Virus record (IMG/VR): IMGVR_UViG_3300031974_000499
Coordinates: 1-34,662 of that record
Strand: one strand, 5' to 3'
From: a virus
Taxonomy: Duplodnaviria > Caudoviricetes
Length of the DNA stretch: 34,662 bases
The position numbers and the translations under genes were made by a program. Below the pieces are notes generated by a model that saw only the letters and a list, made by a program, of their open reading frames with translations, searched no databases and was not told the DNA's origin. This document shows, piece after piece, positions 1-34,662 of the stretch (position 1 is the first letter of the stretch; each line of letters begins with the position of its first letter).

Positions 1-129
1 GATAAGCCTATGGAGATGGTTGTTACAGACAAAGAAGCTAAAGACCTCAAAGACGAAGAACTACAGAACGAGCTGTTAGCTATCCTTAACAAGAACCCTG
101 TAATTGATGCGGAAGTAGAAGAAGAGTGA
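1..129 (+). CDS. 3' end of probable terminase small subunit (partial)
   Basis: Frame 1 reads DKPMEMVVTDKEAKDLKDEELQNELLAILNKNPVIDAEVEEE*. Its TGA overlaps the GTG start of terL (GTGA). Function is inferred from position only. Confidence 0.6.
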   Translation, partial: DKPMEMVVTDKEAKDLKDEELQNELLAILNKNPVIDAEVEEE

Positions 130-1616
130 ACTTAGACCTTTCTCCAGAACAGCTAGCACAGATTCCAAAGGATCAGCAGAAGAGACTTCTAGAACTACTC
201 AAAGAACAGAAAGAAAGAGTGAAGTTCAACAAGAAGGATCACTTCAACCTATACGATTGGCAGAAGGGACTAGCTAACGCTACGAAAGAAGCTAATCAGG
301 TGTTGGCAATGTGTGCTAACCAGATTGGTAAGTCTACAAGCGGTGCGTACATTACAGCATGTCACTTGACAGGTATCTATCCTGATTGGTGGAAGGGTAA
401 GAGATTTGATAAGCCCATCTACTGTTGGGCGGCAGGTGTATCTAACGACACCACCAGAGACATCCTACAGACAGAATTGTTTGGTCTTGCTGAGAGTGAA
501 GACATGTGGGGTACAGGTATGGTTAACCTGTCTATGATTGGTGAGAAGACCAGACGTAGAGGTGCAACAGGTAACACATACGATAGTGTCATGGTTCAAC
601 ACCACGATAAGAATGGAAACCCTGACGGATGGTCTCGTATTGGTTTTAAGTCTTACGAGATGGGTGAAGAGAAGTTTTACGGCAGACCAGTAGATTGGAT
701 TTGGCTCGATGAGCAACCACCATCTAATATCTACACCCAGTGTATTACGCGGACGGTAGCTACAAATGGATTCGTAATGATGACGTTTACTCCAGAGGAC
801 GGTATGACTCCTGTTGTAAACCAATTTATGAATGACATTAAAGAGGGGCAGAAACTAATTCAGGCTACGTGGGACGATGCTCCTCATCTAGACGAAGATA
901 CCAAAGAACAGCTACTCGCTCAGTATCCTCCACACGAACGTAAGTTACGAAGTCAAGGTATTCCTGTATTTGGTTCTGGTCTTGTGTTCCCTGTATCAGA
1001 AGACAAGCTGATCGTTGATCCTTTTGAAATACCAGACCATTGGAAAAGAATTGCAGGTCTTGACTTTGGTTATGATCACCCCACAGCAGTAGCTTGGATT
1101 GCTATTGACGAGGAAAGCGATACGTATTATGTCTATGACGTATATGCAAACCGTCAGGAGACAGCTATAATCCATTCTGCGGCGATTAAGCAACGACCTC
1201 AATGGATACCAGTGGCGTGGCCTAAAGATGGCTTACAGAGCGATAAGGGAAGCGGAGTGAGTCTTGCTGAACAGTATCGAGAGCAAGGTGTCAACATGTT
1301 GCATGACTGGGCGCGTAACCCTAAAGCCGCAGGTGACACAGGGAAAGGTAACAACTTTATAGAACCTTCTATTATGGAAATGTTACAGCGCATGGAGACA
1401 GGAAGGTTTAAAGTGTTTGGACATCTTGAAGAATGGTTTAAAGAGTTCCGAGCATATCACAGAAAGGACGGTAAGATAGTACCAATAAAAGATGATATAC
1501 TATGTGCTACAAGATACGCAGTAATGTGCGCTCAGTTTGCAGTAGCAGGTAAATCACAGAACTGGACTGATTATGATAATCGGTCTCTCCCAATTAAGAA
1601 CTGGAGTAATGTATAA
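126..1616 (+). CDS. terL: Terminase large subunit
   Basis: Walker A-like CANQIGKS, Walker B WIWLDEQ, motif III MTFTPEDG, nuclease GLDFGYDHP and C-terminal DDILCATRYA. Lies directly upstream of the portal. Confidence 0.95.
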   Translation: MNLDLSPEQLAQIPKDQQKRLLELLKEQKERVKFNKKDHFNLYDWQKGLANATKEANQVLAMCANQIGKSTSGAYITACHLTGIYPDWWKGKRFDKPIYCWAAGVSNDTTRDILQTELFGLAESEDMWGTGMVNLSMIGEKTRRRGATGNTYDSVMVQHHDKNGNPDGWSRIGFKSYEMGEEKFYGRPVDWIWLDEQPPSNIYTQCITRTVATNGFVMMTFTPEDGMTPVVNQFMNDIKEGQKLIQATWDDAPHLDEDTKEQLLAQYPPHERKLRSQGIPVFGSGLVFPVSEDKLIVDPFEIPDHWKRIAGLDFGYDHPTAVAWIAIDEESDTYYVYDVYANRQETAIIHSAAIKQRPQWIPVAWPKDGLQSDKGSGVSLAEQYREQGVNMLHDWARNPKAAGDTGKGNNFIEPSIMEMLQRMETGRFKVFGHLEEWFKEFRAYHRKDGKIVPIKDDILCATRYAVMCAQFAVAGKSQNWTDYDNRSLPIKNWSNV

Positions 1617-3602
1617 ATGGAAAAAGGTATAACTGATGAAGTATTAGCTCAGTTGATTGGGCAGGAGCTTGACTCTGCTGACTCATGGGCAAACAACGAT
1701 TTGGCTGAGCAACAATCAGAAGCTTTAGACTATTACTATGGTAAGCCTTTTGGAGATGAAGAGGATGGCTTTTCTTCCGTAGTAACTAGAGATACACTAA
1801 AGACAGTGGAGGGTATCATGCCTTCGCTAATGAAGGTGTTTGCTTCTGGTGATACTTTTGTTGAGTTTGAACCTGTAGGAGCTGAGGATGAAGAAGCGGC
1901 TCAACAGGCTACCGATTACTTAAACTATGTATTTGATAAACGGTGTGATGGATTTAACGTATTATATACATGGTTTAAAGATGCACTACTAATGAAGAAT
2001 GGATTAGTAGAAGTAAATTGGGAAGAAGACGAACTATGTGATATTGAGAACTTTGAAGGTATCGAGGACAGTGAAGTCCAAGCTTTAGAAGATGATGAGA
2101 ACCTAGAGATTGTTGAAAAGGAAATTAATGAAGAAGACCCGAATCTCTATAATGTTACTGTACGCCGTGACTATAATCGTGGTAGGCCAGTCGTTGACAA
2201 CATCCCATCCTCTGAGTTTAGGATTAAGGCGAGAAGTAAGAGCATTAAGGATGCCGACTTCGTTGCAAGAGTTCAAGAGGTCAGCATCGGATCGCTTGTT
2301 GATGCAGGATATAATAAAGATGATATTAGCACAGGACACAGTTCAAACCTTGCTAAAACAGAAGTAGAAGACTCTCGTTTTGGAGACGTAGAAGAAACAA
2401 GAGAATACAGTAACGAAACCTTAGCTGAATATGTCAAGTCATGGATTAAAGTATTTGACGAAGAAGACGAGAAGATGAAGCTGTTTGAAGTACACAGCGT
2501 AGGTAATGTTGTACTTGAAAAGCAAGAAGTAGGTACTGTACCTGTAATCAATCTCTCTCCAATTATGATGCCTCACAAGTTTACAGGTGTTAGTGTTGCT
2601 GATCTTGTTAAAGATATCCAAGAGATTAGAAGTAAGATGTGGAGACACACTCTCGATAACTTAGCACTATCTAACGCAGGTAGATATGCGGCTGTAGAAA
2701 ACCAAGTAAACCTGCAAGACCTTATCGACAACCGTATTGGTGGTATTGTCCGTGAGAAAGTACAGGGCGCTGTTAGACAGCTTCCAGTACCACAGCTAGG
2801 TCAAGCTACCTTCCCCTTCTTAAACGAGCTAGATAAAGAAAGAGAAGACCGTGCAGGTGTTTCTAGAATGACTCAAGGCTTAGACCCATCAGCCTTAACA
2901 TCTAACACAGCGGCTACAGCAGTTAATCAGGTAATGACTGCGGCTCAAGAAAAGATACAACTAATTGCTCGTATCTTTGCTGAGACAGGTGTTAAAGAAT
3001 TATTCCTACAGCTTTACAGATTGATTAGAACAAACAACTCGGAAGTAGATATTGTTAAGCTACGTGGTAGGTTTGTCCCTGTTGCTCCGTACGATTGGAA
3101 AGATAGATTTGATATGGCAGTGACGGTTGGCTTAGGTAATCAAAACAAAGACCAACAACTAATGCACTTAAACAACATTGCAACAATGCTTCGAGGTGTA
3201 GGCGAGACTCAAGGCGGATACTTGATACAGCCACAGCACATTCATGCATTAGCTAGTGAGTTTATTAAGAATGCAGGTTACCGCAATCCTGCTAAGTTTA
3301 TTGGTGATCCTAGTCAAGTTAAACCGCCAGAGCCACAGCCAAGCCCAGATATGATTGCGGCACAGGGTGAATCACAGAAAGATATTGCTGACGCACAGTT
3401 AAAGCAAGTACAAGCGGCGGCACAGCAAGCAGAGGCTCAACTAAAACAAACAGAACTCCAGATCAAACTAGAGAACATGAAGTTCGAGCGTGAGAAGTTT
3501 GAATGGATGAAGAAGAAAGAAGCCGCAGAACTTGGACTTGAGGCTGTACAGAAACGACCAGTAGGGATTGGAGACAGCAAGTTAAAGATGAGTGGTGAAT
3601 AA
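1617..3602 (+). CDS. Portal protein (P22-like, with long C-terminal Gln/Ala-rich coiled coil)
   Basis: 661 aa, follows terL. Contains ALDYYYG, WFKDALLMKNG and TATAVNQ...IARIFAETG, plus a helical Q/A-rich C-terminus. Confidence 0.9.
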   Translation: MEKGITDEVLAQLIGQELDSADSWANNDLAEQQSEALDYYYGKPFGDEEDGFSSVVTRDTLKTVEGIMPSLMKVFASGDTFVEFEPVGAEDEEAAQQATDYLNYVFDKRCDGFNVLYTWFKDALLMKNGLVEVNWEEDELCDIENFEGIEDSEVQALEDDENLEIVEKEINEEDPNLYNVTVRRDYNRGRPVVDNIPSSEFRIKARSKSIKDADFVARVQEVSIGSLVDAGYNKDDISTGHSSNLAKTEVEDSRFGDVEETREYSNETLAEYVKSWIKVFDEEDEKMKLFEVHSVGNVVLEKQEVGTVPVINLSPIMMPHKFTGVSVADLVKDIQEIRSKMWRHTLDNLALSNAGRYAAVENQVNLQDLIDNRIGGIVREKVQGAVRQLPVPQLGQATFPFLNELDKEREDRAGVSRMTQGLDPSALTSNTAATAVNQVMTAAQEKIQLIARIFAETGVKELFLQLYRLIRTNNSEVDIVKLRGRFVPVAPYDWKDRFDMAVTVGLGNQNKDQQLMHLNNIATMLRGVGETQGGYLIQPQHIHALASEFIKNAGYRNPAKFIGDPSQVKPPEPQPSPDMIAAQGESQKDIADAQLKQVQAAAQQAEAQLKQTELQIKLENMKFEREKFEWMKKKEAAELGLEAVQKRPVGIGDSKLKMSGE

Positions 3603-3826
3603 TGAACCCAGAACAAAAAGCAAACATGGCTCGTGAGTTGCTTAGAGGAGGAATCTTGGAAGAGGTTTTCTCTGACATACAACAAAACATTGCAATAGCA
3701 TGGGCTAAGTCAACAGAAATTGATGAGCGTGATGACTTTTGGCATTTACAAAAAGCAGTAGGTATGGTTGAAGATGTCATAGTTGGTTACGTATCAAACT
3801 ACGAATATCAACAAAAAGTAAAATAA
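3602..3826 (+). CDS. Small hypothetical protein between portal and scaffold
   Basis: 74 aa helical ORF, coupled to the portal by a TAATG overlap. Confidence 0.75.
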   Translation: MNPEQKANMARELLRGGILEEVFSDIQQNIAIAWAKSTEIDERDDFWHLQKAVGMVEDVIVGYVSNYEYQQKVK

Positions 3827-3829
3827 AGC

Positions 3830-3858
3830 TTTACTTTTACTTTAAAGTATGGTATAAT
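3830..3858 (+). promoter_or_regulatory. Sigma70-type promoter with extended -10, upstream of the scaffold/capsid genes
   Basis: TTTACT (3830-3835), a 17-nt spacer ending TGG, then TATAAT (3853-3858), in an AT-rich intergenic gap. Confidence 0.75.
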
Positions 3859-3893
3859 ATACATATATAGAACTACATAGGAGACTACCCCAA

Positions 3894-4916
3894 GTGGATG
3901 TCAATGAAACTCTTACAATGAATGAAGCCGTAGCTAAACTTCTTAATCCCTCCGAAGAGGAGCAAGTGAAGGAAGAGGAGCTAGAGCAAGAAACCCTCGA
4001 AGAGGAAACTCAAGAGGTCACTGCTGAAGATGGAGACGAGGAAGTTGAAACTGAAGCAGAGGAAGATACCGAAGTCGAAACGGAAGAAGATGACGGTGAC
4101 GCTGAAGTGGGGGATTCTGACGAAGATGAAGAAGAGTCTGATACTCAAGAGGCGACTACAGAAGGTGAGCTGTACACTGTTAAAGTGGATGGTGAAGAGT
4201 ATGAAGTCAACCTCGAAGAGTTAAAGAAAGGATATCAACTCGAACAGAATTACACGAAGCGTGTCCAGAAGCTACAAGATGAGTCTAAAGAACTTGATAC
4301 TCTAAAGACTAATCTTAACGCTGAGAGACAGCAGTATCTGCAACTTATGGAACTAGCCGCTACTAATCAAATGGCGGAGGTTAATAAGGCTAAAGAACTG
4401 TTAGGAGCTATCGATAAAGAAGCTGACCCTGTTGCTTATGTTAAACAGCAGTTACGTGTTCAAGAGATTGAAGATAACTTACGACAAAGTGTTGCAGGTT
4501 TTCAACAAGCTAAAGCACAAGCTGATCAACAAAGGCAAGAGCAACGCGCTAAGATAGTTCACCAAGAGCAAGAGAAACTTTCAAGTTTAATACCTGAATG
4601 GGTTTCTCCTGACTTTCAAAAAGCTGTTGTTGACTATGCTAAGGCACAGGGTTATTCAGACGCTGACCTAAGCAATGTAATATCAGCTCGTGATGTGTCG
4701 GTAATTAATAAGGCAAGACTATACGATGAACTTGTTAGCAAGAAGGCAACCGTCAAAAAGAAAAGACAACCTGTTGTTAAGAAGAAAGTAAAGTCGAAAA
4801 CACCTGCATCGGCTCAAACACGAAAAGCTCGCGCCGTTAAGGAACAACGACAAAAGCTAAAAAGCTCTGGCAAAGTGACAGATGCGGCAAACGCCATTCT
4901 GTCTTTAACCTCTTAA
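3894..4916 (+). CDS. Capsid scaffolding protein
   Basis: Very acidic N-terminus, YTVKVDGEEYEVNLEELKKGYQ...YTK motif, coiled coil and basic C-terminus. Lies between portal and capsid. The start could also be the ATG at 3918. Confidence 0.88.
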   Translation: MDVNETLTMNEAVAKLLNPSEEEQVKEEELEQETLEEETQEVTAEDGDEEVETEAEEDTEVETEEDDGDAEVGDSDEDEEESDTQEATTEGELYTVKVDGEEYEVNLEELKKGYQLEQNYTKRVQKLQDESKELDTLKTNLNAERQQYLQLMELAATNQMAEVNKAKELLGAIDKEADPVAYVKQQLRVQEIEDNLRQSVAGFQQAKAQADQQRQEQRAKIVHQEQEKLSSLIPEWVSPDFQKAVVDYAKAQGYSDADLSNVISARDVSVINKARLYDELVSKKATVKKKRQPVVKKKVKSKTPASAQTRKARAVKEQRQKLKSSGKVTDAANAILSLTS

Positions 4917-4941
4917 CTTTATTTAATAAGGAAATTTAATC

Positions 4942-5907
4942 ATGGCAAATCCAGTATTTACTACATACGGAACTACAGGTATCCGTGAAGACCTTTCAGA
5001 TATTATTTACAATATCTCACCAACAGACACTCCTTTCATCTCTAACGTAGGTAAAGGAACAACTAAAGGTACTTACACCGAGTGGCAAGTTGATTCACTA
5101 ACAGCCGCCGCAGACACTCCAGTAGTTGAAGGTGCAGATGCTCCTGCCGCCGCTAGTGCCGCTACAACTCGCGTAGGTAACTACACTCAAATCGCTTCTA
5201 AAACTGTAAAAGTTTCAGGCTCTAACGAAGCTTCTGATTCAGCAGGTCGTGCGTCAGAAATGGCATATCAGCTTGCTAAGAAAGGTATGGAAATGAAGCG
5301 TGACATGGAGAAAACTTTAGTTGGTACTGACAAGGCTCAAGTTGCAGGTGATGCAACTACTGCTCGTCAACTAGCTTCTGTTACTTCTTGGCTTGGTACT
5401 AACTGCTCGCAAGGTGCGGCGGCAGGTACTGACCCTGACACAGCTCCTCCTTCAGGTGACGGTACTGATATCGCAGTAGCAGGTACAGAACGCGCTCTTA
5501 CTGATACTATTCTAAACGGTCTTATTGAAGACGTATGGGAATCAGGTGGTGATCCTTCTATCATTATGTGTGGCGCTTTCCAAAAAGCGGCTATCACTGG
5601 CTTTACTGGTAACACTTCTGTTGCTCGTAAGTTTACCGATGCTGAGTCTAAGAAGTACATCAACGCGGTAGATGTGTATGTTTCTGATTATGGCGAGTTA
5701 AATGTTGTACCTAACCGTCTAATGCAGAACGACATTGTATTGGTTCTTCAACCTGACATGTGGTCTGTAGACTACTATCGTGACTTCCAGACTAAAGACC
5801 TAGCTGTAACAGGTGACTTTGAGTCTAAGCAACTACTAGCAGAATACACTTTGTGTTCTAAGAACGAAGCCGCTTCTGGTGTAGTTCGTGATCTTTCTAC
5901 TTCATAG
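4942..5907 (+). CDS. Major capsid protein (HK97 fold, DUF5309/SU10-like)
   Basis: GIREDLSDIIYNISPTDTPF, EWQVDSL, VGNYTQI, MKRDME and VDVYVSDYG motifs. Has an AAGGA RBS and is followed by a terminator. Confidence 0.92.
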   Translation: MANPVFTTYGTTGIREDLSDIIYNISPTDTPFISNVGKGTTKGTYTEWQVDSLTAAADTPVVEGADAPAAASAATTRVGNYTQIASKTVKVSGSNEASDSAGRASEMAYQLAKKGMEMKRDMEKTLVGTDKAQVAGDATTARQLASVTSWLGTNCSQGAAAGTDPDTAPPSGDGTDIAVAGTERALTDTILNGLIEDVWESGGDPSIIMCGAFQKAAITGFTGNTSVARKFTDAESKKYINAVDVYVSDYGELNVVPNRLMQNDIVLVLQPDMWSVDYYRDFQTKDLAVTGDFESKQLLAEYTLCSKNEAASGVVRDLSTS

Positions 5908-5920
5908 TAGTTGATCTTTT

Positions 5921-5957
5921 GTCGGGCTATCCTTCGGGGTAGCTCGGCTTATTCTTT
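5921..5957 (+). terminator. Intrinsic terminator after the major capsid gene
   Basis: GTCGGGCTATCC-TTCG-GGGTAGCTCGGC forms a 12-bp stem with G-U pairs and a cUUCGg tetraloop, followed by TTATTCTTT. Confidence 0.85.
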
Positions 5958-5969
5958 ATAGGAGTATCT

Positions 5970-6281
5970 ATGTCTGACGTTAAAACCCATATCATTCAAA
6001 ACAATGATGACACAATCAGTATTGGTACTACACAAGATTATACCGATATCTTTGAACAAAACAAACTAGAAGCTGATAATAACCTCAACCGTAAAACTGG
6101 TGATAACACATGGGGACGTAAAGTAGCTTCTATTCCTCTTAATATTATTAATGCATGGTGCAAAGAATGGAACTGCACACTGCAACAACTTTTCCGAGAC
6201 CCTGACTTAAAAGCAAAGATGATGCTACGACTACGTAGTAGAGACTACTTAAAACTTAGAACAGATAATGGAAATATATAA
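5970..6281 (+). CDS. Hypothetical protein downstream of capsid
   Basis: 103 aa, GGAG RBS, RKVASIP...YLKLRT motif, TAATG-coupled to the next gene. Confidence 0.8.
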   Translation: MSDVKTHIIQNNDDTISIGTTQDYTDIFEQNKLEADNNLNRKTGDNTWGRKVASIPLNIINAWCKEWNCTLQQLFRDPDLKAKMMLRLRSRDYLKLRTDNGNI

Positions 6282-6892
6282 TGGCAGTAAGTAACTTTGG
6301 AGAACTAAGAGCGCTTGTAAAAGACTGGGGAAACCGTACTGATATTCCAGACGCTACCGTTAATTCTTTTATTAATCTAGCACAAGACAGAGCTAATCGT
6401 GTCTTGCGTATTCCTGTTCTTGAAAAGGTATCTGCTAGCCTTCCTATAGTAGATGGAGCTGTTGTTATTCCTTCTGATTACTTAGAAGCTAAAGCTCTTA
6501 CTGTTGATGTAAGTGGTACTATTATAGACTTACAACGTAAAGACCTCCCCTACGTTTTAAGCAAAGGTAAGCAAGCAGGTAATCCAAGATACTTTGCACG
6601 AGAAGCTAATAAGTTTATACTTGGCCCTAAAGGTAATCTAACTACAGCTAAGCTTGCATATTATTATGTAGCCCCTGATCTTGTAAACGACACAGATACT
6701 AATTGGTTTGTTGAGTATGGTACTGACCTTTTACTTTATGGTGCATTAGCAGAGCAAGCTTTATATACAAAGAATACAGAAGAAGCCGCACAGTTTGAAG
6801 CTAAGTTTAGAGGAGCGGCGGCAGAAATTGAAAACATGGCACAGCAAGCAGAGGCTTCAGGTTCAACATTAGGTATAGTACCTTCGAGGTAA
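6281..6892 (+). CDS. Head-tail adaptor / tail tubular protein A-like
   Basis: FINLAQDRANRVLR, IPSDYLE, GNPRYF and TNWF...DLLLYGAL motifs typical of podovirus adaptors, plus its position. Confidence 0.8.
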   Translation: MAVSNFGELRALVKDWGNRTDIPDATVNSFINLAQDRANRVLRIPVLEKVSASLPIVDGAVVIPSDYLEAKALTVDVSGTIIDLQRKDLPYVLSKGKQAGNPRYFAREANKFILGPKGNLTTAKLAYYYVAPDLVNDTDTNWFVEYGTDLLLYGALAEQALYTKNTEEAAQFEAKFRGAAAEIENMAQQAEASGSTLGIVPSR

Positions 6893-6895
6893 CCC

Positions 6896-7111
6896 ATGTC
6901 AGGTTTTTATAAAGATTATGATGATTCAGATCAAACATATTTAGATACTGCTGAGCAAGCCGCTAATGCCGCTATATCAGCGCAACAACAAGCTCAAGCA
7001 ATACTAGATACAATATATGACATTGTTCCTGTAGAAGACGTTACAGGATTAACAGATGCTTTAGCGTTAAAGCTAAGTAAAACAGAAACTATAAATGGTG
7101 GTAGCTATTAA
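6896..7111 (+). CDS. Short fibre-stalk/adaptor protein A
   Basis: MSGFYKDY N-terminus, Ala/Gln coiled coil, fibre-repeat-like VEDVTGLTDALALK, C-terminal INGGSY. Confidence 0.7.
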   Translation: MSGFYKDYDDSDQTYLDTAEQAANAAISAQQQAQAILDTIYDIVPVEDVTGLTDALALKLSKTETINGGSY

Positions 7112-7133
7112 AGGAAAATAAAAGGGTACGATA

Positions 7134-7466: not shown

Positions 7467-7487
7467 AATTTAACAGGGAAGCAAACA

Positions 7488-9557: not shown

Positions 9558-9569
9558 TAAACTAAGACC

Positions 9570-11195: not shown

Positions 11196-11205
11196 GGAGA
11201 ATATT

Positions 11206-11568: not shown

Positions 11569-11569
11569 A

Positions 11570-13605: not shown

Positions 13606-13613
13606 GAGATAAC

Positions 13614-14432: not shown

Positions 14433-14434
14433 TA

Positions 14435-26560: not shown

Positions 26561-26569
26561 AATATCCTC

Positions 26570-26818: not shown

Positions 26819-26820
26819 AT

Positions 26821-27287: not shown

Positions 27288-28044
27288 ACTTCTTCTCCAA
27301 GTAGGACATTGATACTGGCATCTCATCAAACTGTCCTTTGTTTACTTCGTGTAACATCCATATCCCACTCCAACTGCCATTGGTTTGGTGGTTGAGATAG
27401 TCCTCATCGTGAGCGTAGTAGATACCTGCAAACAGTCCAGTGATTCTAGAACCATCTGCTCTTCTTGAATAGGCACACTCTCTATCTTGAACGTGACCCA
27501 TAATACAACTCTGATGTTTCTTGGTTAGCATTGATCGTGCGCTACTTACTGGTCTGCCCATGACACCACTAGTGAAGTAGTGGCAGTAGGCTATGTCATC
27601 AATGATGGCAGGTTCTAGGAAATCATACACCTCCCAACCATACTCATCAAGCTTGAAGTCACGATAACCTATGAGACCATCTAGCTTTGCATCGTTCTCA
27701 ATAGCACGTTCGATGCGTTGTTCGTGGTTGCCTATCAGAAATACTAATCTAGGATTCCACACTTTCTTACGGTTCTGACGTAGCCTTTGTTGCTCTGCCC
27801 TGATGGGGCGAAGGAAGGCTTCCATCCCTCTGTGTCCTGCCTCGATGTCATTGGTGTAGCGTCTACCCTCGAAGGACTTCTTACCTACATCATACATCGA
27901 TAAAGACGGCATGTCCCAGTGGTCTCCCAGATGAACAATAACGTCAGGCTTCTTATTGGCGGCGTACTTACCTGCCCACTCAAGATGCTCGACAGACTGG
28001 TCTGGCTTGACTTGGGTGTCTGGTATTACTAAGTGTCTAGTCAT
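27271..28044 (-). CDS. Calcineurin-like metallophosphoesterase
   Basis: IPDTQ, HLGDHWD, IGNHE, YCH and MGHVQ motifs. Start moved to ATG 28044 (GAGGAG upstream). Confidence 0.88.
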   Translation of the reverse strand: MTRHLVIPDTQVKPDQSVEHLEWAGKYAANKKPDVIVHLGDHWDMPSLSMYDVGKKSFEGRRYTNDIEAGHRGMEAFLRPIRAEQQRLRQNRKKVWNPRLVFLIGNHEQRIERAIENDAKLDGLIGYRDFKLDEYGWEVYDFLEPAIIDDIAYCHYFTSGVMGRPVSSARSMLTKKHQSCIMGHVQDRECAYSRRADGSRITGLFAGIYYAHDEDYLNHQTNGSWSGIWMLHEVNKGQFDEMPVSMSYLEKKYGTNI

Positions 28045-28420
28045 TTGCTTTACGCTCCTCACGCTCTGCGTTGGTCTTCTTCTGATGGCAGGGTTTACAT
28101 AACACCTGTAATCCATCAACCTCACAGAACATATTCTTTACGAATTTAGGTAGGTCTTCGTACTTGCGTAGTGTACCCGCAGGTACGATGTGATCTACTT
28201 GTACTTCTTTATCCTTGAACCACTCTTCACAACAAGCACATTGGAACTCGAAGCGATGACGCTTACCAACAACTGCTTTCTTTGCTTTAGCTTTGGCGGC
28301 GTATCTTGGTGGGAATCTACGGTTCGCTTCTCTTAGTGCTGAACGTATGAATCCCCAATACCTTGCTTCTGTCCACTTACCTCCTGCTCTGGTTCTAGGT
28401 ACTCTAGGTTTCTTAGCCAT
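28037..28420 (-). CDS. HNH endonuclease
   Basis: CACC...VQVDHIVP...LQVLCKPCHQKKT. Confidence 0.88.
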   Translation of the reverse strand: MAKKPRVPRTRAGGKWTEARYWGFIRSALREANRRFPPRYAAKAKAKKAVVGKRHRFEFQCACCEEWFKDKEVQVDHIVPAGTLRKYEDLPKFVKNMFCEVDGLQVLCKPCHQKKTNAEREERKAND

Positions 28421-29201
28421 TACCTACCCTTACTTGAAGTTTCTCTTTAGTATCGATGTCTGCTGAAGAGGGAGGAGGCGGGGGTCTTACACCAATAGGG
28501 TTCTTAGAGTTGTACTCAGCCTTTCGTGTTTCAGGGTCTACCCACCATTCATCTTCATACCTGCGTAGGTAAAGCAGTCTAGCGTTCTCATACAACGAGT
28601 CTACATCACCTTTGTAGCAGGTCAAGACAGCTTGATATAAATCTTCTTCTGTCTCACACCATTCTAAAGCGGCGGTTGCTTTTACTTCGCCTATCCCTAC
28701 ACAACCTTGTATGTTATCTACTCGGTCACCTGTCAGCATCTGCTTGTATAGGAAGTTCATGCCGTCCCATTCACCTACCTCCATCCATTCATCCTTGACG
28801 AAGTTATAGTGTCTACATGGTACTTGAAGAAAGTCTTTATCTATACTTGCAATTACTGAGTGAGTGCCTTGAGTGGTAGCTTCGATAGCGATAGCATCAT
28901 CAGCTTCCTGCCCCTCGATAACTATAGCATCCCATTCGGATACCATGTAATCACGCAACAAGTAAAAATGCGAGGGCTTCTCAGAGGTTCGTGTTCCTTT
29001 GTAGGGTTTGATTGTGGCGAGGTCGTTTCTAAAGTTACCTTTGCCTGTTAGGTAAAGTTGATAGGGGACTGCATCATCACAGCCCCTTACCAAGATATCC
29101 AACACCAAGTTATTCAACTGAGAGAACGCTGTTTCCGCTGTCTCATCTTGACAGGCAAAGCCTATTCTATAACTTAGGATGTCGGCATCGATGAGTAACA
29201 T
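28413..29201 (-). CDS. 5'-3' exonuclease / RNase H (T7 gp6-like)
   Basis: LIDAD, NFR...YKGTR, EADDAI, SIDKDFLQ and GDRVDNIQGCVGIG. Confidence 0.92.
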   Translation of the reverse strand: MLLIDADILSYRIGFACQDETAETAFSQLNNLVLDILVRGCDDAVPYQLYLTGKGNFRNDLATIKPYKGTRTSEKPSHFYLLRDYMVSEWDAIVIEGQEADDAIAIEATTQGTHSVIASIDKDFLQVPCRHYNFVKDEWMEVGEWDGMNFLYKQMLTGDRVDNIQGCVGIGEVKATAALEWCETEEDLYQAVLTCYKGDVDSLYENARLLYLRRYEDEWWVDPETRKAEYNSKNPIGVRPPPPPSSADIDTKEKLQVRVGNG

Positions 29202-29611
29202 TAGATTACATCATCCATGTCGATAGCACCGCCGTCTCCATCCTTATCATACACAGCTACCTCAGTGATTAGTAGCTTGGACAGGCTAGCTGATGTACCC
29301 TGCTTGCCTTTGAAGTCCCAATGGTATGGTTTGATTGCGGCGTTAGCCTTACTACCGTTACCAATGAGAGAAGAGTCTACTTCATCTGTAGCAGAGAAAG
29401 CAGGTTTGATTGGATTCTGTGACTTAACAGTAATATAGTTACCGCGATCGTCACCCTTGTTGCGAACAGCAATGCCCATATCGGACAGCACCTGTACTGC
29501 CTTTGAGGATAGCTTACTGATGTCCACCTGATACTTACCTGACATGTCGTTAGGTTTGTTCAAGAATGGCCAATGAAGTTCACATGATACTACAACTGGT
29601 TTATCGTTCAT
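29201..29611 (-). CDS. Single-stranded DNA-binding protein (T7 gp2.5-like)
   Basis: WPFLNKPN..SGKYQVD, IGNGSKA and an acidic C-terminal tail. Lies between the polymerase and the exonuclease. Confidence 0.8.
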   Translation of the reverse strand: MNDKPVVVSCELHWPFLNKPNDMSGKYQVDISKLSSKAVQVLSDMGIAVRNKGDDRGNYITVKSQNPIKPAFSATDEVDSSLIGNGSKANAAIKPYHWDFKGKQGTSASLSKLLITEVAVYDKDGDGGAIDMDDVI

Positions 29612-29683
29612 ATTAATTTACCTTTGTATTTAACTATTAAGATTATGTTACATTCTTTAGATTACATTAAACGTAATTCATTG

Positions 29684-29707
29684 AAAGTTAATTAATTATT
29701 TAACTTT
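29684..29707. repeat. 24-bp near-perfect palindrome in AT-rich intergenic region
   Basis: AAAGTTAATTAATTATTTAACTTT, 22 of 24 positions self-complementary. Confidence 0.7.
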
Positions 29708-29715
29708 ATAGTAAT

Positions 29716-29744
29716 ATTATAGCATGGATTTAACCTCCTGTAAA
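29716..29744 (-). promoter_or_regulatory. Sigma70-type promoter with extended -10, upstream of ssb
   Basis: Minus strand reads TTTACA, a 17-nt spacer ending TGC, then TATAAT. Confidence 0.8.
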
Positions 29745-29761
29745 GTCTTATTGTAAAATAA

Positions 29762-31405
29762 TTAATGAGTAGCACTCCAGTTAGAACCAACACGATACTC
29801 TGCGTCCATAGGACAGCGCATGTTAAGCTCGACACCTGCGTCTATGATTGCTTGTCGTGCAACCTGACCCACAACATCAGCATCTTCAGGTTTAGCTTCT
29901 ATCTGGAACTCATCGTGTACCTGAGCAACAAGCTTGTAGAATACACCAAGCTCATCGAGTTTGTTACAACAGTTACGCACAGCAACTTTCATAACGATAG
30001 CACCACAACTCTGTAGCAATCTGTTGAGTGCCTTGTAGTCCTCATCAACTTTAATCATACGTCCATCGATACCATTGATGCGTTTGGTACGTTGCGCTAC
30101 GCCTTTAGCTTTATTGATTAGGTTGCGTAGTGATGGTAGCTTTGTCAAGAAAGTATCGCGTATCTTCTTACCCTCTTTAGCACCACCACCTACAATCTGA
30201 CCAAGCTTAGCGTCACCTGCACCATAGATGAGACCATAGATCATAGTCTTAGCCATACTACGTTCAGGCAACCCTGCCGCGTTCTGATTGAACGAGTGTA
30301 TGTCACCCTCAAGTATCTGCTTAGTGTACTCATCATCATTCATATAGTGAGCCAAGCATCGTAACTCCAGACCACTAGCGTCACAACCTACCAGAACATT
30401 ACCGTCCTCCACAGTGAAGCATTCCCTAGCAATCTTGAGGCTAGGTATCTGTGCAAGGTTAGGTTTGTTATGTGTCATCCTACCTGTCACAGCACCACAA
30501 CTATTGACATAACCATGAATGCGGTGAGTCTCAGGGTCTACATACTTGAGCCAACTGTCTACCATACCCTTGAGTTTAACCAAGCCTAGATACTCAGCAC
30601 ATAACTTAGCTTCAGGCAAGTCAATCTCTGCCAATGTACTCTCGTCAACAACAGGCGATCCATTCGGTGTTTTCTTTTTCCACTTGACTCCAAGCTTAGA
30701 TAACCTCTTTGCGATCTGCTGTCGTGAGCCTACATTGAAGTGTTCAACGTGGTCTTTAAGTCTCTTACCTGTCTTCTCACTAACCCTGATGGTAATGATG
30801 GGAGGGAATCTATCTTGCAGTTCCCTAGTTATCTCATCGATGCGAGTAGCCATATCACTCTGCCACTTAGTAGCTACGTTCATATCTAGCTTGAAGCCAT
30901 TACGAACCTGCTGTGCTGTGACCTGTGCAACGTCATGCTCTAACTGAATAGACATATCACTGAAGCCTTTCTGTTTCAGCTTGCTCATTAGGTAGTAGTA
31001 CAGCTTTGTAGTTACCTCAACATCACGCTTACAGTACTCACCCATCTCATCGGTGTAGCCACTCTCGAAGTCTTCAACATCGAAGTCCATCTTAGCGTAG
31101 CCTATGCGCTTGCCCCACTCGCTCAAGCTGTGACCACCTACAGGCGTAGGGTCGAGCAGTCTAGCTAGCACCAGTGTATCCCATACAGGTACTCTAGCAT
31201 CAATCCCCCAACAACTTTTCAAGACTGCCTGATCGAAGAACACTATGTTGTGTCCTACTAAGCCACTTGCAGTAGATAACATCATCTCTAAGTGTCGCTT
31301 CTCGAACAGAACGGAAGCGTTTGTTTGCTTGTGATCCTGCACTCCTGCACACCATATCGTATCGTGTGAAAGATTTGTTTCCAAGTCTAGTGTAATCATA
31401 CCCAT
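29762..31405 (-). CDS. polA: Family A DNA polymerase with 3'-5' exonuclease domain
   Basis: ExoI LDLET, GHNIVFFD, YCKRDV, TGRM...PNLAQIP, motif A DASGLELR, motif B AKTMIYGLIYG, motif C VHDE. The start may be 31399. Confidence 0.95.
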   Translation of the reverse strand: MGMITLDLETNLSHDTIWCAGVQDHKQTNASVLFEKRHLEMMLSTASGLVGHNIVFFDQAVLKSCWGIDARVPVWDTLVLARLLDPTPVGGHSLSEWGKRIGYAKMDFDVEDFESGYTDEMGEYCKRDVEVTTKLYYYLMSKLKQKGFSDMSIQLEHDVAQVTAQQVRNGFKLDMNVATKWQSDMATRIDEITRELQDRFPPIITIRVSEKTGKRLKDHVEHFNVGSRQQIAKRLSKLGVKWKKKTPNGSPVVDESTLAEIDLPEAKLCAEYLGLVKLKGMVDSWLKYVDPETHRIHGYVNSCGAVTGRMTHNKPNLAQIPSLKIARECFTVEDGNVLVGCDASGLELRCLAHYMNDDEYTKQILEGDIHSFNQNAAGLPERSMAKTMIYGLIYGAGDAKLGQIVGGGAKEGKKIRDTFLTKLPSLRNLINKAKGVAQRTKRINGIDGRMIKVDEDYKALNRLLQSCGAIVMKVAVRNCCNKLDELGVFYKLVAQVHDEFQIEAKPEDADVVGQVARQAIIDAGVELNMRCPMDAEYRVGSNWSATH

Positions 31406-31445
31406 GATCCTCTAACGTAATTATAACATCACCAATCTTGCTCAT
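31200..31445 (-). CDS. Possible 81-aa gene overlapping the start of polA
   Basis: AGGAG RBS 8 nt before ATG 31445, but about 200 nt overlap polA in another frame. Confidence 0.35.
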   Translation of the reverse strand: MSKIGDVIITLEDHGYDYTRLGNKSFTRYDMVCRSAGSQANKRFRSVREATLRDDVIYCKWLSRTQHSVLRSGSLEKLLGD

Positions 31446-31608
31446 TAGTTACATCTCCTATTATCTCTTCAATGGATTCTTCTTTCTCTTCCAAATCAAA
31501 GGCTATATTGTAGCAGACACCACAGAGATCAGCAAACTCTCCTGTCTCAGGCGTTCTCATAACCAACTCCAAGTCACTCATCTTTTTGTTACACGCCGCG
31601 CATCTCAT
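31429..31608 (-). CDS. 59-aa zinc-finger protein (not in ORF track)
   Basis: MRCAACNKKMSDLELVMRTPETGEFADLCGVCYNIAFDLEEKEESIEEIIGDVTNEQDW*: two CxxC motifs, AGGAG RBS, ATGA overlap with the helicase stop. Confidence 0.8.
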   Translation of the reverse strand: MRCAACNKKMSDLELVMRTPETGEFADLCGVCYNIAFDLEEKEESIEEIIGDVTNEQDW

Positions 31609-33200
31609 AACACTTCTCCTTCAAGTAATACTTCTGACATCCTTCCAGTTGCTTGGTCATACTGAACCGCAGTAGCTAAGCCTGTCTCACCGCTGAACCT
31701 GTTCTTCAGTACCCTGATGTAGGTAGTGTTGCGCTCATCGATATCATCAGCCTGACCATTACGCTCAAAGCCTAGTACAATATCAGATAGCTGTGCAATA
31801 CTAGCAGAACCACGCAGATCAGCTAGGCTAGTAGCCGCGCCCTCTTCGTGACCCTTACCTGATGGTCTACGCAGGTGTGACACTAGGAACAAAGCAATGC
31901 CTGTCTCTTGTACTAACATACGCAACCTTGTCATCACCTCATCGATAGCCTTGCGCTCATCGCCATTGTCCTGAGCAGACACGATGATAGACAGGTGATC
32001 TAGGAACACATACTTACAGTCGTGAGCCTTAGATAGATACCTGACCTGACCTACGATATTCTCGACACTAGTAGAGCCGAAGTGGTCGTAGAAGAACAGC
32101 CTATCTGTACCTAGCGTAGCCTCGAAAGCATCACGCCGCTCATCCTCAGTCGATTCTACTGTGGGTAGGTGCAACCTCTTGTTAGCATGTAAAGACATCA
32201 GGGACTTGCCTGTCTTGGACACTGACTCTTCAAGGAAGATACAGCCTATGTTGCTGTCGCTATTCTGTAGCACATGATACAGTATCTCACGCATCACCTG
32301 ACTCTTACCGACACCGCTACCTGCTGTCAGCGTTACAAGTTCATAGCCCCTGATACCATACGTCATATCATTGAGACCCTGCCATGCATACTGAACAGAG
32401 GCTTTCTCTACAGGTTGGTTGACAGCATTCCATAGACTCTTACCTGCAATGATACCATCAGGTGTATGTATCTCAGCCGCCCACCATGCAGACTTGAAGT
32501 CATCAGCCCTACCATGCTCAAGATAATCGTTAGCATCCTTGTAATCAGGATGATGCTTGACAATCCTAGCTTTACCTGCGAATAGGGAGGCTACCTCTTT
32601 GGCGGCAGTCTGACCTGCCTCATCAGAGTCGAAGCAGACAATCACATTGTCAAAGCTATCGATCCATTCATACTGTGCCTTACAATCCTTGAGTGCTGAC
32701 TGCGCTCCATTCTTGATAGACACTGCCGCGTACTTACTACCGCTCATTTGGTACACGCTCGCCGCATCATACTCACCCTCAGTGATGGTTAAATATCGAC
32801 CACCTTTAGGGAACAGATGCTGACCAAACAAGACACCATCGCCCCATACACCGAAGCTACGTTGGTTCTCTTTACTACCCATCCTTACCTTTTGAGCGCA
32901 GACCATTGAGTCTTTGTCTCTGTACTCAAATATAATATCATCACCATCAACACTGATACCGTATCGCTCGCAAGTATTCTGCGTAATACTGCGTATCATT
33001 TGATGCCTACCTCTACCTACTTCCATACTGGATACTCCTATATCTCTACTTATATCTATAACATTACTGCGGTCAGCACCTGACTTATACCGCTCACCGC
33101 AACTGAAGCATGTAGTCCACCCATCGTGGTTAGTTGACGCACCGTCACTGCTACTACACAGTTCACATGCATGATGCGTCAGCGCCCATCCACTATTCAT
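31605..33200 (-). CDS. DNA primase-helicase (T7 gp4-like)
   Basis: Zn ribbon CELC...CFSC, TOPRIM ITEGEYDA / FDSDEAG / KDAND, Walker A AGSGVGKS, FLDHLS, LRGSASIAQLSD and LKNRFSG. The ATG at 33200 is preferred to the GTG at 33215. Confidence 0.95.
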   Translation of the reverse strand: MNSGWALTHHACELCSSSDGASTNHDGWTTCFSCGERYKSGADRSNVIDISRDIGVSSMEVGRGRHQMIRSITQNTCERYGISVDGDDIIFEYRDKDSMVCAQKVRMGSKENQRSFGVWGDGVLFGQHLFPKGGRYLTITEGEYDAASVYQMSGSKYAAVSIKNGAQSALKDCKAQYEWIDSFDNVIVCFDSDEAGQTAAKEVASLFAGKARIVKHHPDYKDANDYLEHGRADDFKSAWWAAEIHTPDGIIAGKSLWNAVNQPVEKASVQYAWQGLNDMTYGIRGYELVTLTAGSGVGKSQVMREILYHVLQNSDSNIGCIFLEESVSKTGKSLMSLHANKRLHLPTVESTEDERRDAFEATLGTDRLFFYDHFGSTSVENIVGQVRYLSKAHDCKYVFLDHLSIIVSAQDNGDERKAIDEVMTRLRMLVQETGIALFLVSHLRRPSGKGHEEGAATSLADLRGSASIAQLSDIVLGFERNGQADDIDERNTTYIRVLKNRFSGETGLATAVQYDQATGRMSEVLLEGEVL

Positions 33201-33348
33201 CAAACGCCTCGCCACTTAGCAGGGGATAGGCTTGAGTCAACTCGCAAGCTAGATTGAACAGAGTCATCTCATCAGAGGCATTACTAGCGGTATCCATTGA
33301 TGACTTGATTGTCTCCATCAGCTTATCAAACATATCTTTATTCATCAT
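33193..33348 (-). CDS. 51-aa hypothetical protein (not in ORF track)
   Basis: MMNKDMFDKLMETIKSSMDTASNASDEMTLFNLACELTQAYPLLSGEAFDE*, with a GAGGT RBS and short overlaps with both neighbours. Confidence 0.7.
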   Translation of the reverse strand: MMNKDMFDKLMETIKSSMDTASNASDEMTLFNLACELTQAYPLLSGEAFDE

Positions 33349-33556
33349 TCACCACCTCGTTATGATATACTCTACCGTATGTGAGCAGGAAGAAAGGGAG
33401 CATGATGACGATACCCTCAAAGGACATTGCTTCGACTGTTCCATCGTCTTCAAAGAGTACCCACACTGCTCTGCTATCTGTAAACTCCAGATCAAAACCA
33501 ACACCGTTACGAAATTCAAGGGATAACCTCCTATTAAATAACCAAGTACCAAACAT
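33338..33556 (-). CDS. Hypothetical protein
   Basis: 72 aa, AAGGAG RBS, packed between neighbours. Confidence 0.7.
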   Translation of the reverse strand: MFGTWLFNRRLSLEFRNGVGFDLEFTDSRAVWVLFEDDGTVEAMSFEGIVIMLPFFLLTYGRVYHNEVVNDE

Positions 33557-33557
33557 A

Positions 33558-33899
33558 TTATTCTCCTTTCAAGTATTCAATATGCTCTTCGATATAGTCT
33601 GCAACTCTACGAGTCAGACCGCCTACTGCATCTTCTACAAGCTGACCCATGCGGACATAGTTATCATCAGACAATGCTTGTATAACTTCACCATGATAAT
33701 CACGCATGGCATCGAGTGTATCTAGATACTCACCAATGAATGCATCGCTGAGTATCTCAGGGTCTCTGTTCATCAGATCGAGAGCATGCATCCATGCATA
33801 ACTCATCACATCTTGGTGGGTTGAATGCTCGTCAATCATTGGGAACATTGCGTCAGCCCTTGCGGGTTCATAAGGTTCAAACACCATCGGTAGCTTCAT
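33558..33899 (-). CDS. Acidic hypothetical protein
   Basis: Start moved to MKLPMV (ATG 33899, GGAGGA upstream). Confidence 0.75.
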   Translation of the reverse strand: MKLPMVFEPYEPARADAMFPMIDEHSTHQDVMSYAWMHALDLMNRDPEILSDAFIGEYLDTLDAMRDYHGEVIQALSDDNYVRMGQLVEDAVGGLTRRVADYIEEHIEYLKGE

Positions 33900-34113
33900 T
33901 GTCTTCCTCCTCTGGTTGTGGTTGGACAGGTTGCTCGATGTTGATACCATACACATGTGCGCTGATTTCGTAAAGTATTCCTGAGAATTGTTTACATAAT
34001 TGCGCTTGTTGGTTACGACTTTTTGACCGTCTTCCTACAATTAATTGCATGGCTTGGTCATCATATTGACGAGCGATTCGATTTATTTCGTTGAATAGAT
34101 TTAAATTATTCAC
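33877..34113 (-). CDS. Hypothetical protein
   Basis: 78 aa, GTG start with AAGGTG upstream. Confidence 0.65.
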   Translation of the reverse strand: MNNLNLFNEINRIARQYDDQAMQLIVGRRSKSRNQQAQLCKQFSGILYEISAHVYGINIEQPVQPQPEEEDNEATDGV

Positions 34114-34115
34114 TG

Positions 34116-34322
34116 TTACTTCACCTTTTTAATCAAGTTATTTTCCATTAATACCTCAGCAAAGAACTCTCTGCCGAGACCTGTAATGTGTGGACGGTTA
34201 GCACCTACTAGCAGACCATCACTCACATACTCTTCACCAAACAAGCTAGTCTCTATATACTTCAACGGCTTGCCGATGTTCTCTTTCAGCTCTTTCTTAC
34301 TTGCATATCTGAATACTATCAT
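34116..34322 (-). CDS. Hypothetical protein
   Basis: YASKKELKENIGKPLKYIETSLFGEEY, GAGGTG RBS, TAATG overlap. Confidence 0.8.
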   Translation of the reverse strand: MIVFRYASKKELKENIGKPLKYIETSLFGEEYVSDGLLVGANRPHITGLGREFFAEVLMENNLIKKVK

Positions 34323-34660
34323 TATATCACCTCTTTGTCAATCATTACTTTTATACGAGCCGAGTCAAAATACTCTCGGATATACCTACGAACCTTAGCT
34401 TGAGCATCGCTATCAACTTCTTCCACTTCAGTTATACGATCCTCCAGAGTGGACACCAGATACTCCATCTCATCTACCCTGCACTCAAGATCACCATTGT
34501 GTCCATCGACACCCATCAGATCGGTGTCAATCTGCGACAGCCTACGCTCCAGTGTAGCTATGCGCTCAGCATCACGCTCGTGTATCTTAGCTTGCTCCTC
34601 GATAGCCTTAGCTACCCTCTCGTTTATCCACTTGTCAAACATATTAATAAACTCCATCAC
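34322..34660 (-). CDS. Coiled-coil hypothetical protein (start at window edge, uncertain)
   Basis: Heptad pattern IATLERRLSQI...LECRVDEMEYLVSTLEDRI. Confidence 0.7.
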   Translation of the reverse strand: MMEFINMFDKWINERVAKAIEEQAKIHERDAERIATLERRLSQIDTDLMGVDGHNGDLECRVDEMEYLVSTLEDRITEVEEVDSDAQAKVRRYIREYFDSARIKVMIDKEVI

Positions 34661-34662
34661 TA

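What the first reader, a model, noticed from the sequence alone, without database searches (positions are those of the whole stretch)
1..34662. Window-wide depletion of GCWGC, CCWGG and CCAGC/GCTGG, with abundant C-to-T derivatives
Seen by eye, not computed: although Ala is mostly GCT/GCA, Ala-Ala pairs are consistently written GCGGCN or GCCGCN (for example near 3414, 5104, 5146, 5416, 6815, 28669). I found no GCAGC or GCTGC. Of dozens of CCAG tetramers on the + strand I found only three followed by G or C (7608, 15071, 18704). Ala-Gly is almost always GCAGGT rather than GCTGGT, so GCAGG/CCTGC is spared. I also noticed no CCGG or GGWCC. GTAGC/GCTAC, CTAGC/GCTAG and CTAGG/CCTAG are common; these are the products expected from deamination of a methylated second C, and CTAG is rare in many bacteria. 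Inference: this is either avoidance of several host restriction systems or the mutational footprint of a broad or multispecific C5 methyltransferase. Losing CCAGC while keeping GCAGG would be an unusual asymmetric specificity. No methyltransferase is encoded in this window.
Basis: partly seen in the sequence, partly recalled or inferred. Interest (0 to 1): 0.7.

Follow-up and report, generated by a model that had tools for sequence, protein, structure and literature searches.

The report
Marine phage purges host restriction sites
This uncultured seawater phage has removed more than a dozen short DNA words from its genome, even giving up Pro-Gly and Gly-Pro pairs in its proteins, most likely to escape host restriction enzymes, and one purged word (CCAGC) likely marks a marine defence enzyme not yet identified.

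Summary
Observation confirmed and wider than reported. Coding counts against codon-shuffled means: GCWGC 0/82, CCAGC 1/54, CCWGG 3/20, CCGG 0/26, GGWCC 0/16, CGWCG 0/31. About ten more words are also gone, such as GDGCHC, GGNNCC, CCWWGG, RGATCY, ACGGG and CTGCAG. The deamination reading fails. All 82 Ala-Ala pairs escape by A/T-to-G/C changes. At orthologous sites C-to-T is no commoner at the would-be methylated C (18) than at the mirror C (13). The 'derivative' words are equally common in relatives that keep GCWGC. No methyltransferase was found in the genome or in close relatives spanning its missing arc. Selection reaches the proteins: Pro-Gly 2 and Gly-Pro 5, against 27 expected each. Relatives lose the words one by one, so there are many separate specificities, which is restriction-site avoidance, a known strategy, in an extreme form. 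The open part is CCAGC/GCTGG. It is lost on both strands, independently of GCWGC and CCWGG, in several lineages and in Cellulophaga phage phi38:1. In the 2018 REBASE-derived list it appears only as a Neisseria type III site, a class phages rarely avoid. The host is unknown.

The parts
1..34662 (.). Genome-wide, two-strand loss of GCWGC, CCAGC/GCTGG, CCWGG, CCGG, GGWCC, CGWCG, GDGCHC, GGNNCC, CCWWGG, RGATCY, ACGGG/CCCGT, GRCGYC, CYCGRG, CTGCAG, CAGCTG, AACGTT, CTTAAG, CATATG; near loss of GCAGGC; partial loss of GATC and GGCC
126..24512 (+). Morphogenesis arm of a podophage-like genome: terminase 126-1616, portal 1617-3602, scaffold 3894-4916, major capsid 4942-5907, tail and virion proteins, holin 24120-24512
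24567..34660 (-). Replication arm: class II (B12) ribonucleotide reductase 24567-26432, phosphoesterase, HNH, exonuclease, SSB, family A polymerase 29762-31405, primase/helicase 31605-33215, small early genes; no methyltransferase
3414..3422 (+). Example Ala-Ala-Ala written GCG GCG GCA; all 82 Ala-Ala pairs begin with GCG (51) or GCC (31)
7608..7612 (+). Residual CCAGG at one of only two Pro-Gly pairs; every Pro codon before Gly creates CCWGG or CCGG
15071..15075 (+). Residual CCAGG at the second Pro-Gly pair
10738..10742 (+). Residual CCTGG (Thr-Trp junction), the third CCWGG
18698..18708 (+). Met-Asp-Pro-Ala gene start holding the only CCAGC (18704), the only GGNNCC and one of two RGATCY (18700); Met-Asp-Pro forces either GGATCC or GGACC

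Best explanation
The phage has lost these words by single-base changes fixed across its genome, most likely because each word is cut by a separate host restriction-modification system. Shown: the words are absent on both strands; escape uses whichever synonymous change breaks the word, even a disfavoured codon; where no synonymous escape exists (Pro-Gly, largely Gly-Pro) the dipeptide itself is depleted; relatives lose or regain the words one at a time. Inferred: the agents are mostly orthodox type II enzymes spread over the strains or species that this lineage infects, and the phage, with no recognisable methyltransferase of its own, survives by having no sites. For CCAGC/GCTGG the agent is predicted to be a single-site-cutting type II (IIA/IIS-like) system not in the 2018 list (about 0.55), against type III like ModD1 (about 0.2) or another methylation-linked or sequence-specific defence (about 0.25).
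For: Counts against three nulls. Ala-Ala: 82 of 82 use GCS, although Ala codons are 758 of 958 GCW overall. Pro-Gly 2 and Gly-Pro 5 against about 27, never below 12 and 9 in 2000 residue shuffles; they are the two most depleted dipeptides. Escape spectrum centred on the middle base. 9 of 37 six-base palindromes are absent, against 29 of 1795 non-palindromes. GCWGC, CGWCG, ACGGG, GGWCC, GDGCHC, GGNNCC, RGATCY, CCWWGG, GRCGYC and CCGG are all listed as type II sites in the supplement of PMC6286503. Modular loss on the polymerase tree: at least 4 changes for CCAGC against 1 for GCWGC, and 3 independent pairs differ in CCAGC but not GCWGC. G002 and L121 lose CCAGC but keep many CCWGG. L003, nested in the window's clade, carries ACGGG, GWGCWC, GGNNCC and CCWWGG. 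Both orientations of CCAGC are gone (+ strand 1 vs 22.7 and 0 vs 32.8).
Against: The host is unidentified, so no cognate enzyme was shown. No cultured relative exceeds about 50% identity in polymerase, primase, capsid or portal. Fifteen or more systems is a lot for one host, which requires a pan-genome or host-range argument that I could not test. GTWGC is still in excess under the constrained null (199 vs 161, z 5.4), though relatives that keep GCWGC also show an excess of GTAGC. Pro-Gly is also absent in sister clades that retain some CCGG, so its loss is older than the window's lineage. Single 6-mer zeros with about 6-9 expected are individually marginal. Trees were FastTree only; the careful search timed out.
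Confidence: 0.84

Rival explanations
1. Methylation trap. Host orphan methyltransferases mark these words on progeny DNA and modification-dependent (type IV/IIM) nucleases in other hosts cut it, so the words are purged by selection without cognate type II endonucleases.
For: It predicts the same selection signature. GCWGC is also listed as a type IIM site. Marine genomes show modification at GCWGC, GGWCC and CCWGG (supplement of PMC8919816).
Against: PMC6286503 reports only weak avoidance for type IIM sites and attributes it to type II systems. The near-total loss of many 6-bp palindromes fits orthodox type II enzymes.
Confidence: 0.07
2. For CCAGC only: the word is avoided because it is recognised by something other than classic restriction, such as a Chi-like signal (GCTGG begins the E. 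coli Chi site, recalled) or a BREX/Mza-like methylation-linked defence.
For: In the 2018 list CCAGC occurs only as a type III site, and type III sites are very rarely avoided. A Listeria lineage carries an unexplained both-strand modification at GCTGG/CCAGC; all five low-quality isolates there lacked a recognised R-M system, and the four with GCAGC carried Mza. The word is also avoided by phages of unrelated hosts.
Against: The target is exactly five bases with no flank preference; of the 15 single-base neighbours only words independently avoided are low. It switches on and off between close relatives like the other restriction words. 13 of 15 cultured marine phages sampled do not avoid it.
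Confidence: 0.06
3. Mutational footprint of a broad or multispecific C5 methyltransferase: methylated inner cytosines deaminate to T and erase the words.
For: GTAGC, CTAGC and GTWGC are 1.3-1.5-fold above the simple and constrained nulls.
Against: Deamination cannot turn GCW GC into GCS GC, yet that is 82 of 82 Ala-Ala pairs. C2>T/G4>A 18 against mirror 13 of 104, and for CCAGC the CTAGC-type product accounts for 2 of 52. The same GTAGC and CTAGC excess occurs in relatives that keep the words. No methyltransferase was found in the window or in relatives covering the missing arc. The one relative with a methyltransferase-family gene (G002) keeps GCWGC 154/91 and CCWGG 21/51. A mutational bias would not remove Pro-Gly and Gly-Pro or AT-rich words such as AACGTT and CTTAAG.
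Confidence: 0.02
4. A by-product of codon-pair or amino-acid preference, unrelated to DNA recognition.
For: Most of the signal lies in codon pairs, because about 95% of the window is coding.
Against: The words are lost in both orientations and in all frames. Sister phages with about 75% identical DNA use GCT/GCA in Ala-Ala freely (61 of 76).
Confidence: 0.01

Closest known systems
Restriction-site avoidance in non-temperate dsDNA phages (Rusinov et al. 2018, PMC6286503; abstract, passages and supplementary site list read)
   Same: Near-complete elimination (observed/expected below 0.1 with more than 15 expected) of orthodox type II sites in a dsDNA phage with no integrase detected.
   Different: About fifteen words at once; cost paid at the protein level (no 'amino acid' occurrence in that paper's main text); one eliminated word has no type II entry in their list; host unknown.
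ModD1 / M.Nme579I type III methyltransferase, 5'-CCm6AGC-3' (Seib et al. 2015, PMC4417156; passages read)
   Same: Identical asymmetric 5-base word.
   Different: Known from Neisseria meningitidis only in the list searched. Type III cleavage mostly needs head-to-head sites, so one strand could be kept, yet both are gone here. No cognate gene was found in a marine host.
Unexplained GCTGG/CCAGC modification in Listeria monocytogenes ST1081 (bioRxiv 10.1101/2022.05.20.492776 and PMC10687267; passages read)
   Same: Same word; the preprint infers modification on both strands, as expected of a system that protects both strands.
   Different: Host-side nanopore error signal in one lineage; enzyme unidentified; no link to marine phages shown.
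Cellulophaga phage phi38:1 (KC821614) and Prochlorococcus phage P-SSM4 (AY940168)
   Same: CCAGC 0/51 in 70 of 72.5 kb of phi38:1, with CCWGG and GGWCC also lost; 20/83 in 100 of 178 kb of P-SSM4.
   Different: Unrelated phages with different hosts. phi38:1 lacks Shine-Dalgarno motifs (3 of 56 genes, against 17 of 23 here), so the window's host is probably not a flavobacterium.
Two-armed podoviruses: LUZ24/phiEco32-like head module; SIO1/Cobavirus- and HTVC103P-like replication module
   Same: Portal 35-37% identical to Pseudomonas podophages, primase 45-50% to HTVC103P-type and SIO1, class II reductase 61-63% to roseophages.
   Different: No cultured close relative; the family is represented by IMG/VR contigs.

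Membership tests
Restriction-site avoidance (type II) | Observed/expected below 0.1 with more than 15 expected, on both strands | tested here: met
   GCWGC, CCAGC, CCGG, GGWCC, CGWCG, GDGCHC, GGNNCC, RGATCY and ACGGG meet it; CCWWGG (0, about 15 expected) is at the threshold; CCWGG is 3/20 by codon shuffle and 3/46 by Markov
Restriction-site avoidance (type II) | Avoided words are recognised type II sites | tested here: met
   Ten words found as type II rows in PMC6286503 supplement 4; CCWGG as EcoRII/Dcm is recalled; CCAGC and GCAGGC have no type II row
Restriction-site avoidance (type II) | Loss driven by selection, not by mutation bias | tested here: met
   Ala-Ala codons, dipeptide loss, escape spectrum
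Restriction-site avoidance (type II) | Host encodes the cognate endonucleases | not testable with these tools
   Host not identified
Restriction-site avoidance (type II) | Non-temperate dsDNA phage | tested here: inconclusive
   No integrase among 36 window proteins or the early proteins of relatives; lifestyle not shown directly
Type III target (ModD1-like) | Asymmetric 5-6 base site | tested here: met
   Exactly CCAGC/GCTGG; matches PMC4417156
Type III target (ModD1-like) | Escape possible by clearing one orientation only | tested here: not met
   Both orientations cleared; residual sites in G002 include both orientations, 4 and 1. This lowers but does not exclude type III.
Type III target (ModD1-like) | mod-res pair with a ModD1-like recognition domain in the host | not testable with these tools
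   Host unknown; ModD1 sequence not fetched
m5C deamination footprint | C-to-T excess at the methylated position | tested here: not met
   18 against 13 mirror changes of 104; 2 of 52 for the CTAGC product
m5C deamination footprint | Product words enriched only where the parent word is lost | tested here: not met
   GTAGC 1.40-fold in a sister group that keeps GCWGC against 1.48 here; CTAGG not enriched here
m5C deamination footprint | A C5 methyltransferase acting on the phage DNA | tested here: inconclusive
   None phage-encoded: PF00145, PF01555 and phrog_757 all negative for G000 and close relatives; a host enzyme could not be tested
Zobellviridae or other named podovirus family | Genome-wide protein-sharing or tree placement within the family | not tested
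   Only single-gene best hits

The most novel reading that the evidence does not exclude
CCAGC/GCTGG is the target of an undescribed defence system that is widespread across marine bacterial phyla. It would be a new type II prototype or a methylation-linked system of another kind, strong enough that at least five podophage lineages, a flavobacterial phage and, partly, a Prochlorococcus myovirus have independently erased the word from both strands. Word loss in uncultured phage families would then be a readout of unknown host defences, a barcode for host assignment, and a force that removes dipeptides from phage proteomes.
Probability: 0.45. Interest if true: 0.65.

Novelty: new variant of a known kind. 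Interest (0 to 1): 0.46.

Why it matters
Restriction avoidance is textbook, so most of the finding is explained. Three things lift it. (1) The family is a natural experiment: close relatives differ in which words they purge, and one nested lineage carries four words the others lack, which dates host or defence shifts. (2) The cost reaches the proteome: Pro-Gly and Gly-Pro are nearly gone, which my searches did not find described. (3) CCAGC points to a recurrent marine specificity with no type II entry in the list I could search. phi38:1 and Cellulophaga baltica give a cultured, harmless pair in which to look for it.

Tried and rejected
Deamination footprint, and one degenerate specificity (SCWGS, SCAGC or CCAGS): rejected, because relatives separate the words.

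Host from cultured relatives: none close. Host from phage contigs inside prokaryote assemblies: the best were L116 (52% polymerase identity, record titled Pseudomonadales) and L118 (46%, record titled Ca. Kapaibacterium). L116 keeps CCAGC (38/30). Its assembly gave no PF00145, PF01555 or PF02086 match. L118 lacks CCAGC (0/28), and its assembly G009 has four C5 methyltransferases, two beside genes with Pfam endonuclease matches. But L118 uses Shine-Dalgarno motifs (10 of 12, against 9 of 60 in G009 DNA) and G009 DNA does not avoid CCAGC (80/81), so I do not treat it as the host.

Marine methylome supplements: CCAGC has 0 hits in PMC8919816 and only a column header in PMC9516812, whose values I did not read. 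Paper searches for CCAGC or GCTGG with phage or methylome terms found only the Neisseria and Listeria papers. REBASE itself was not available. The IQ-TREE run timed out, so FastTree was used. Supplements of the bioRxiv preprint were closed and may bear on the Listeria comparison. Four of the 24 runs listed held almost none of the words and were ignored.
Full report
What the window is. The window is a whole 34,662-base linear virus record, estimated 92% complete. It has a + strand morphogenesis arm (terminase, portal, scaffold, capsid, tail and virion proteins, holin) and a - strand replication arm (class II ribonucleotide reductase, exonuclease, SSB, family A polymerase, primase/helicase). Best cultured hits are distant: polymerase 43-44%, primase 50%, capsid 47%, portal 37%. 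Twenty of 24 listed runs hold half or more of the sampled words, all seawater or marine metagenomes from 8 studies, one possibly the source. 115 related IMG/VR loci were fetched. L008 and L038 run from the terminase through the early region into the window's right end, and L001 (97% DNA identity) extends 3.75 kb beyond it, so the missing arc is covered by close relatives.

The observation. It holds and survives Markov, synonymous-shuffle and stricter junction-preserving nulls. Coding counts against shuffled means: GCWGC 0/82, CCAGC 1/55, CCWGG 3/20, CCGG 0/26, GGWCC 0/16, CGWCG 0/31. With those six words forbidden in the null, more words remain missing: GDGCHC 0/26, GGNNCC 1/32, CCWWGG 0/16, RGATCY 2/34, ACGGG 0/17.5, GCAGGC 2/20, CTGCAG 0/10, AACGTT 0/9, GRCGYC 0/8, CTTAAG 0/8, CYCGRG 0/7, CATATG 0/7, CAGCTG 0/6. 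GATC (61/103) and GGCC (12/44) are only reduced (25 replicates per null). After dropping words that contain a core word or an A-tract, 9 of 37 six-base palindromes with at least 4 expected are absent, against 29 of 1795 non-palindromes, many of which are parts of the degenerate words above. Independent seawater contigs reproduce the stretches around three of the residual sites.

Selection, not deamination. (a) Ala codons are 758 of 958 GCT/GCA, but all 82 Ala-Ala pairs start with GCG or GCC. That is an A/T-to-G/C change, which cytosine deamination cannot make. Ala-Gly is GCA 65, GCG 5, GCT 0, GCC 0; Pro-Ala is CCT 22, CCC 2, CCA 1.

(b) At 210 aligned positions where any of 34 GCWGC-keeping relatives has the word, the window never has it. 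Of 104 single-base differences, 52 are at the central base, 18 are C2>T or G4>A (the deamination products), 13 are the mirror changes C5>T or G1>A, and 21 are others. For CCAGC (99 positions, 27 relatives), 27 of 52 single differences are at the centre and 2 give the CTAGC-type product. Neighbouring non-avoided words are kept at 39 of 154, 31 of 176 and 45 of 127 positions. Polarity is assumed from the tree, on which GCWGC loss is one nested change.

(c) The supposed products: GTAGC 120/81 and CTAGC 98/70 here, but 74/53 and 49/32 in sister groups that keep the parent words; CTAGG is 41/47. Against my reading, GTWGC remains high under the constrained null (199/161) and is higher here (199/153) than in the sisters (114/103, 84/77, 99/86), so a small C-to-T contribution is not excluded.

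(d) The enriched words GCSGC (86/24) and GCAGG (111/56) are reproduced by simply forbidding the core words (89 and 99).

(e) Every Pro codon before Gly makes CCWGG or CCGG. Pro-Gly occurs 2 times against 27.3 expected and Gly-Pro 5 times; in 2000 residue shuffles the minima were 12 and 9. Both Pro-Gly pairs are the residual CCAGG sites at 7608 and 15071. Positions that are Pro-Gly in distant relatives read Val-Gly, Ala-Gly or Asn-Gly here.

(f) No methyltransferase was found: PHROGs on 36 window proteins, Pfam on 30 and PHROGs on 18 early proteins of relatives, and six-frame searches with PF00145, PF01555 and phrog_757 in G000 and close relatives. The exception is G002 (62% polymerase identity), which has a phrog_757 gene and keeps GCWGC and many CCWGG.

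Many specificities, not one. On a FastTree polymerase tree of 62 rows, the 20-row clade holding the window lacks GCWGC, CCAGC and CCWGG. Its sisters lack CCWGG and GGWCC but keep GCWGC. One sister group (L022, L023, L026) also lacks CCAGC. Minimum changes are GCWGC 1, CCAGC 4, CCWGG 6, CCGG 4. Three independent pairs differ in CCAGC and none of them in GCWGC, which is too few for a sign test. On the capsid tree the two traits mostly co-vary (2 changes each). L003 and L004, nested beside the window, carry ACGGG, GWGCWC, GGNNCC and CCWWGG. Ten of the words were found as type II sites in supplement 4 of Rusinov et al. 2018. That paper reports elimination mainly for orthodox type II sites in non-temperate phages, and in 0.3% of proven sites of other types.

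The CCAGC word. The target is exactly five bases: in eight CCAGC-lacking groups the single-base neighbours are normal unless they are themselves avoided words (L139 is an exception with broad CCAG loss). It is lost with CCWGG largely kept in the complete genome G002 (5/74; CCWGG 21/51) and in L121 (2/31; 20/28). It is lost with GCWGC kept in the complete genome G003 (1/69), L022+L108 (3/58) and L118 (0/28). Both orientations are cleared in the window (+ strand CCAGC 1 vs 22.7, GCTGG 0 vs 32.8). Among 15 cultured marine phages, sampled over 20-100 kb each, Cellulophaga phi38:1 has 0/51, P-SSM4 20/83, and 13 show no strong avoidance, including P-SSM2 (87/47).

CCAGC in print. It is the type III ModD1 site of Neisseria meningitidis, and that is its only row in the 2018 list. 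A Listeria lineage shows an unexplained modification at GCTGG/CCAGC, inferred on both strands in the preprint. Since type III sites are rarely avoided and could be escaped on one strand, I infer a single-site-cutting system as most likely. This step is inference only. An earlier AI note in this scan (e1-6159296) reports the same word purged in Prochlorococcus T4-like phages. My sample of two such phages partly agrees (P-SSM4 depleted, P-SSM2 not).

Host. Unknown. Shine-Dalgarno-like motifs precede 17 of 23 long genes, against 3 of 56 in phi38:1, which points away from Flavobacteria and towards Proteobacteria (inference). The two single-cell assemblies holding distant relatives did not survive checks as host evidence.

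Verdict. The pattern is real, genome-wide and caused by selection. It is best read as extreme multi-system restriction avoidance (0.84), a known strategy. The deamination idea is refuted as the main cause. What remains new is the protein-level cost and the recurrent, two-strand loss of CCAGC, whose agent is unidentified. Interest 0.46.

Noticed in passing
window 1-34662 and most related loci: A-tract words are strongly depleted: AAAA/TTTT 186 vs 442, AAAT/ATTT 176 vs 344, AATT 65 vs 180 in coding DNA, while TAAA is normal. The same holds in sister clades and in RIO-1, SIO1, CRP-2 and Slicky01, but not or only weakly in SAR11, OM43, P-SSP7 or phi38:1. Unexplained; not a restriction pattern.
   Followed up: partly
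L003, L004 (G013): Lineage nested in the window's clade (93% polymerase identity) that carries ACGGG 11/8, GWGCWC 6/13, GGNNCC 10/26 and CCWWGG 6/14 while still lacking GCWGC, CCWGG and CCGG; suggests recent relaxation or a host shift.
   Followed up: partly
L036:7163-7879 (G002): phrog_757 DNA methyltransferase-family gene, missed by Pfam PF00145, in the only complete relative that keeps CCWGG; specificity unknown.
   Followed up: partly
window 6896-11195: Two small paralogous genes (6896-7111, 7134-7466) share a start motif and end in GGSY/GGTF; the 689-aa protein after them ends in GGSF, and it and the next 528-aa protein start with similar 'IKxKRSS' segments; looks like a modular tail-fibre cassette, variable among relatives.
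   Followed up: no
window 13614-14432: Two very basic small proteins (phrog_7595, phrog_14910); this stretch draws 10-20 times more metagenomic contig depth than the rest, so it is shared by many other marine genomes.
   Followed up: no
L192:7225-8962, L194:1646-3676, L195:7710-9870, L193:30-776 (G009): A partial 1.8 Mb marine assembly holds four C5 methyltransferases, one beside a HinP1I-family and one beside a BglII-family endonuclease gene.
   Followed up: partly
L139: Another phage-like contig with extreme avoidance (GATC, CCGC, GGCC, GCGC, CACTG, AGCTC, most CCAG and many 6-bp palindromes).
   Followed up: no
window 8564, 18340 and several relatives: GCAGGC/GCCTGC is nearly absent (2 vs 20) here and in G002, G003 and P-SSM4, although GCTAGC is kept in the window; it has no row in the 2018 site list and may be a second orphan asymmetric word.
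   Followed up: partly
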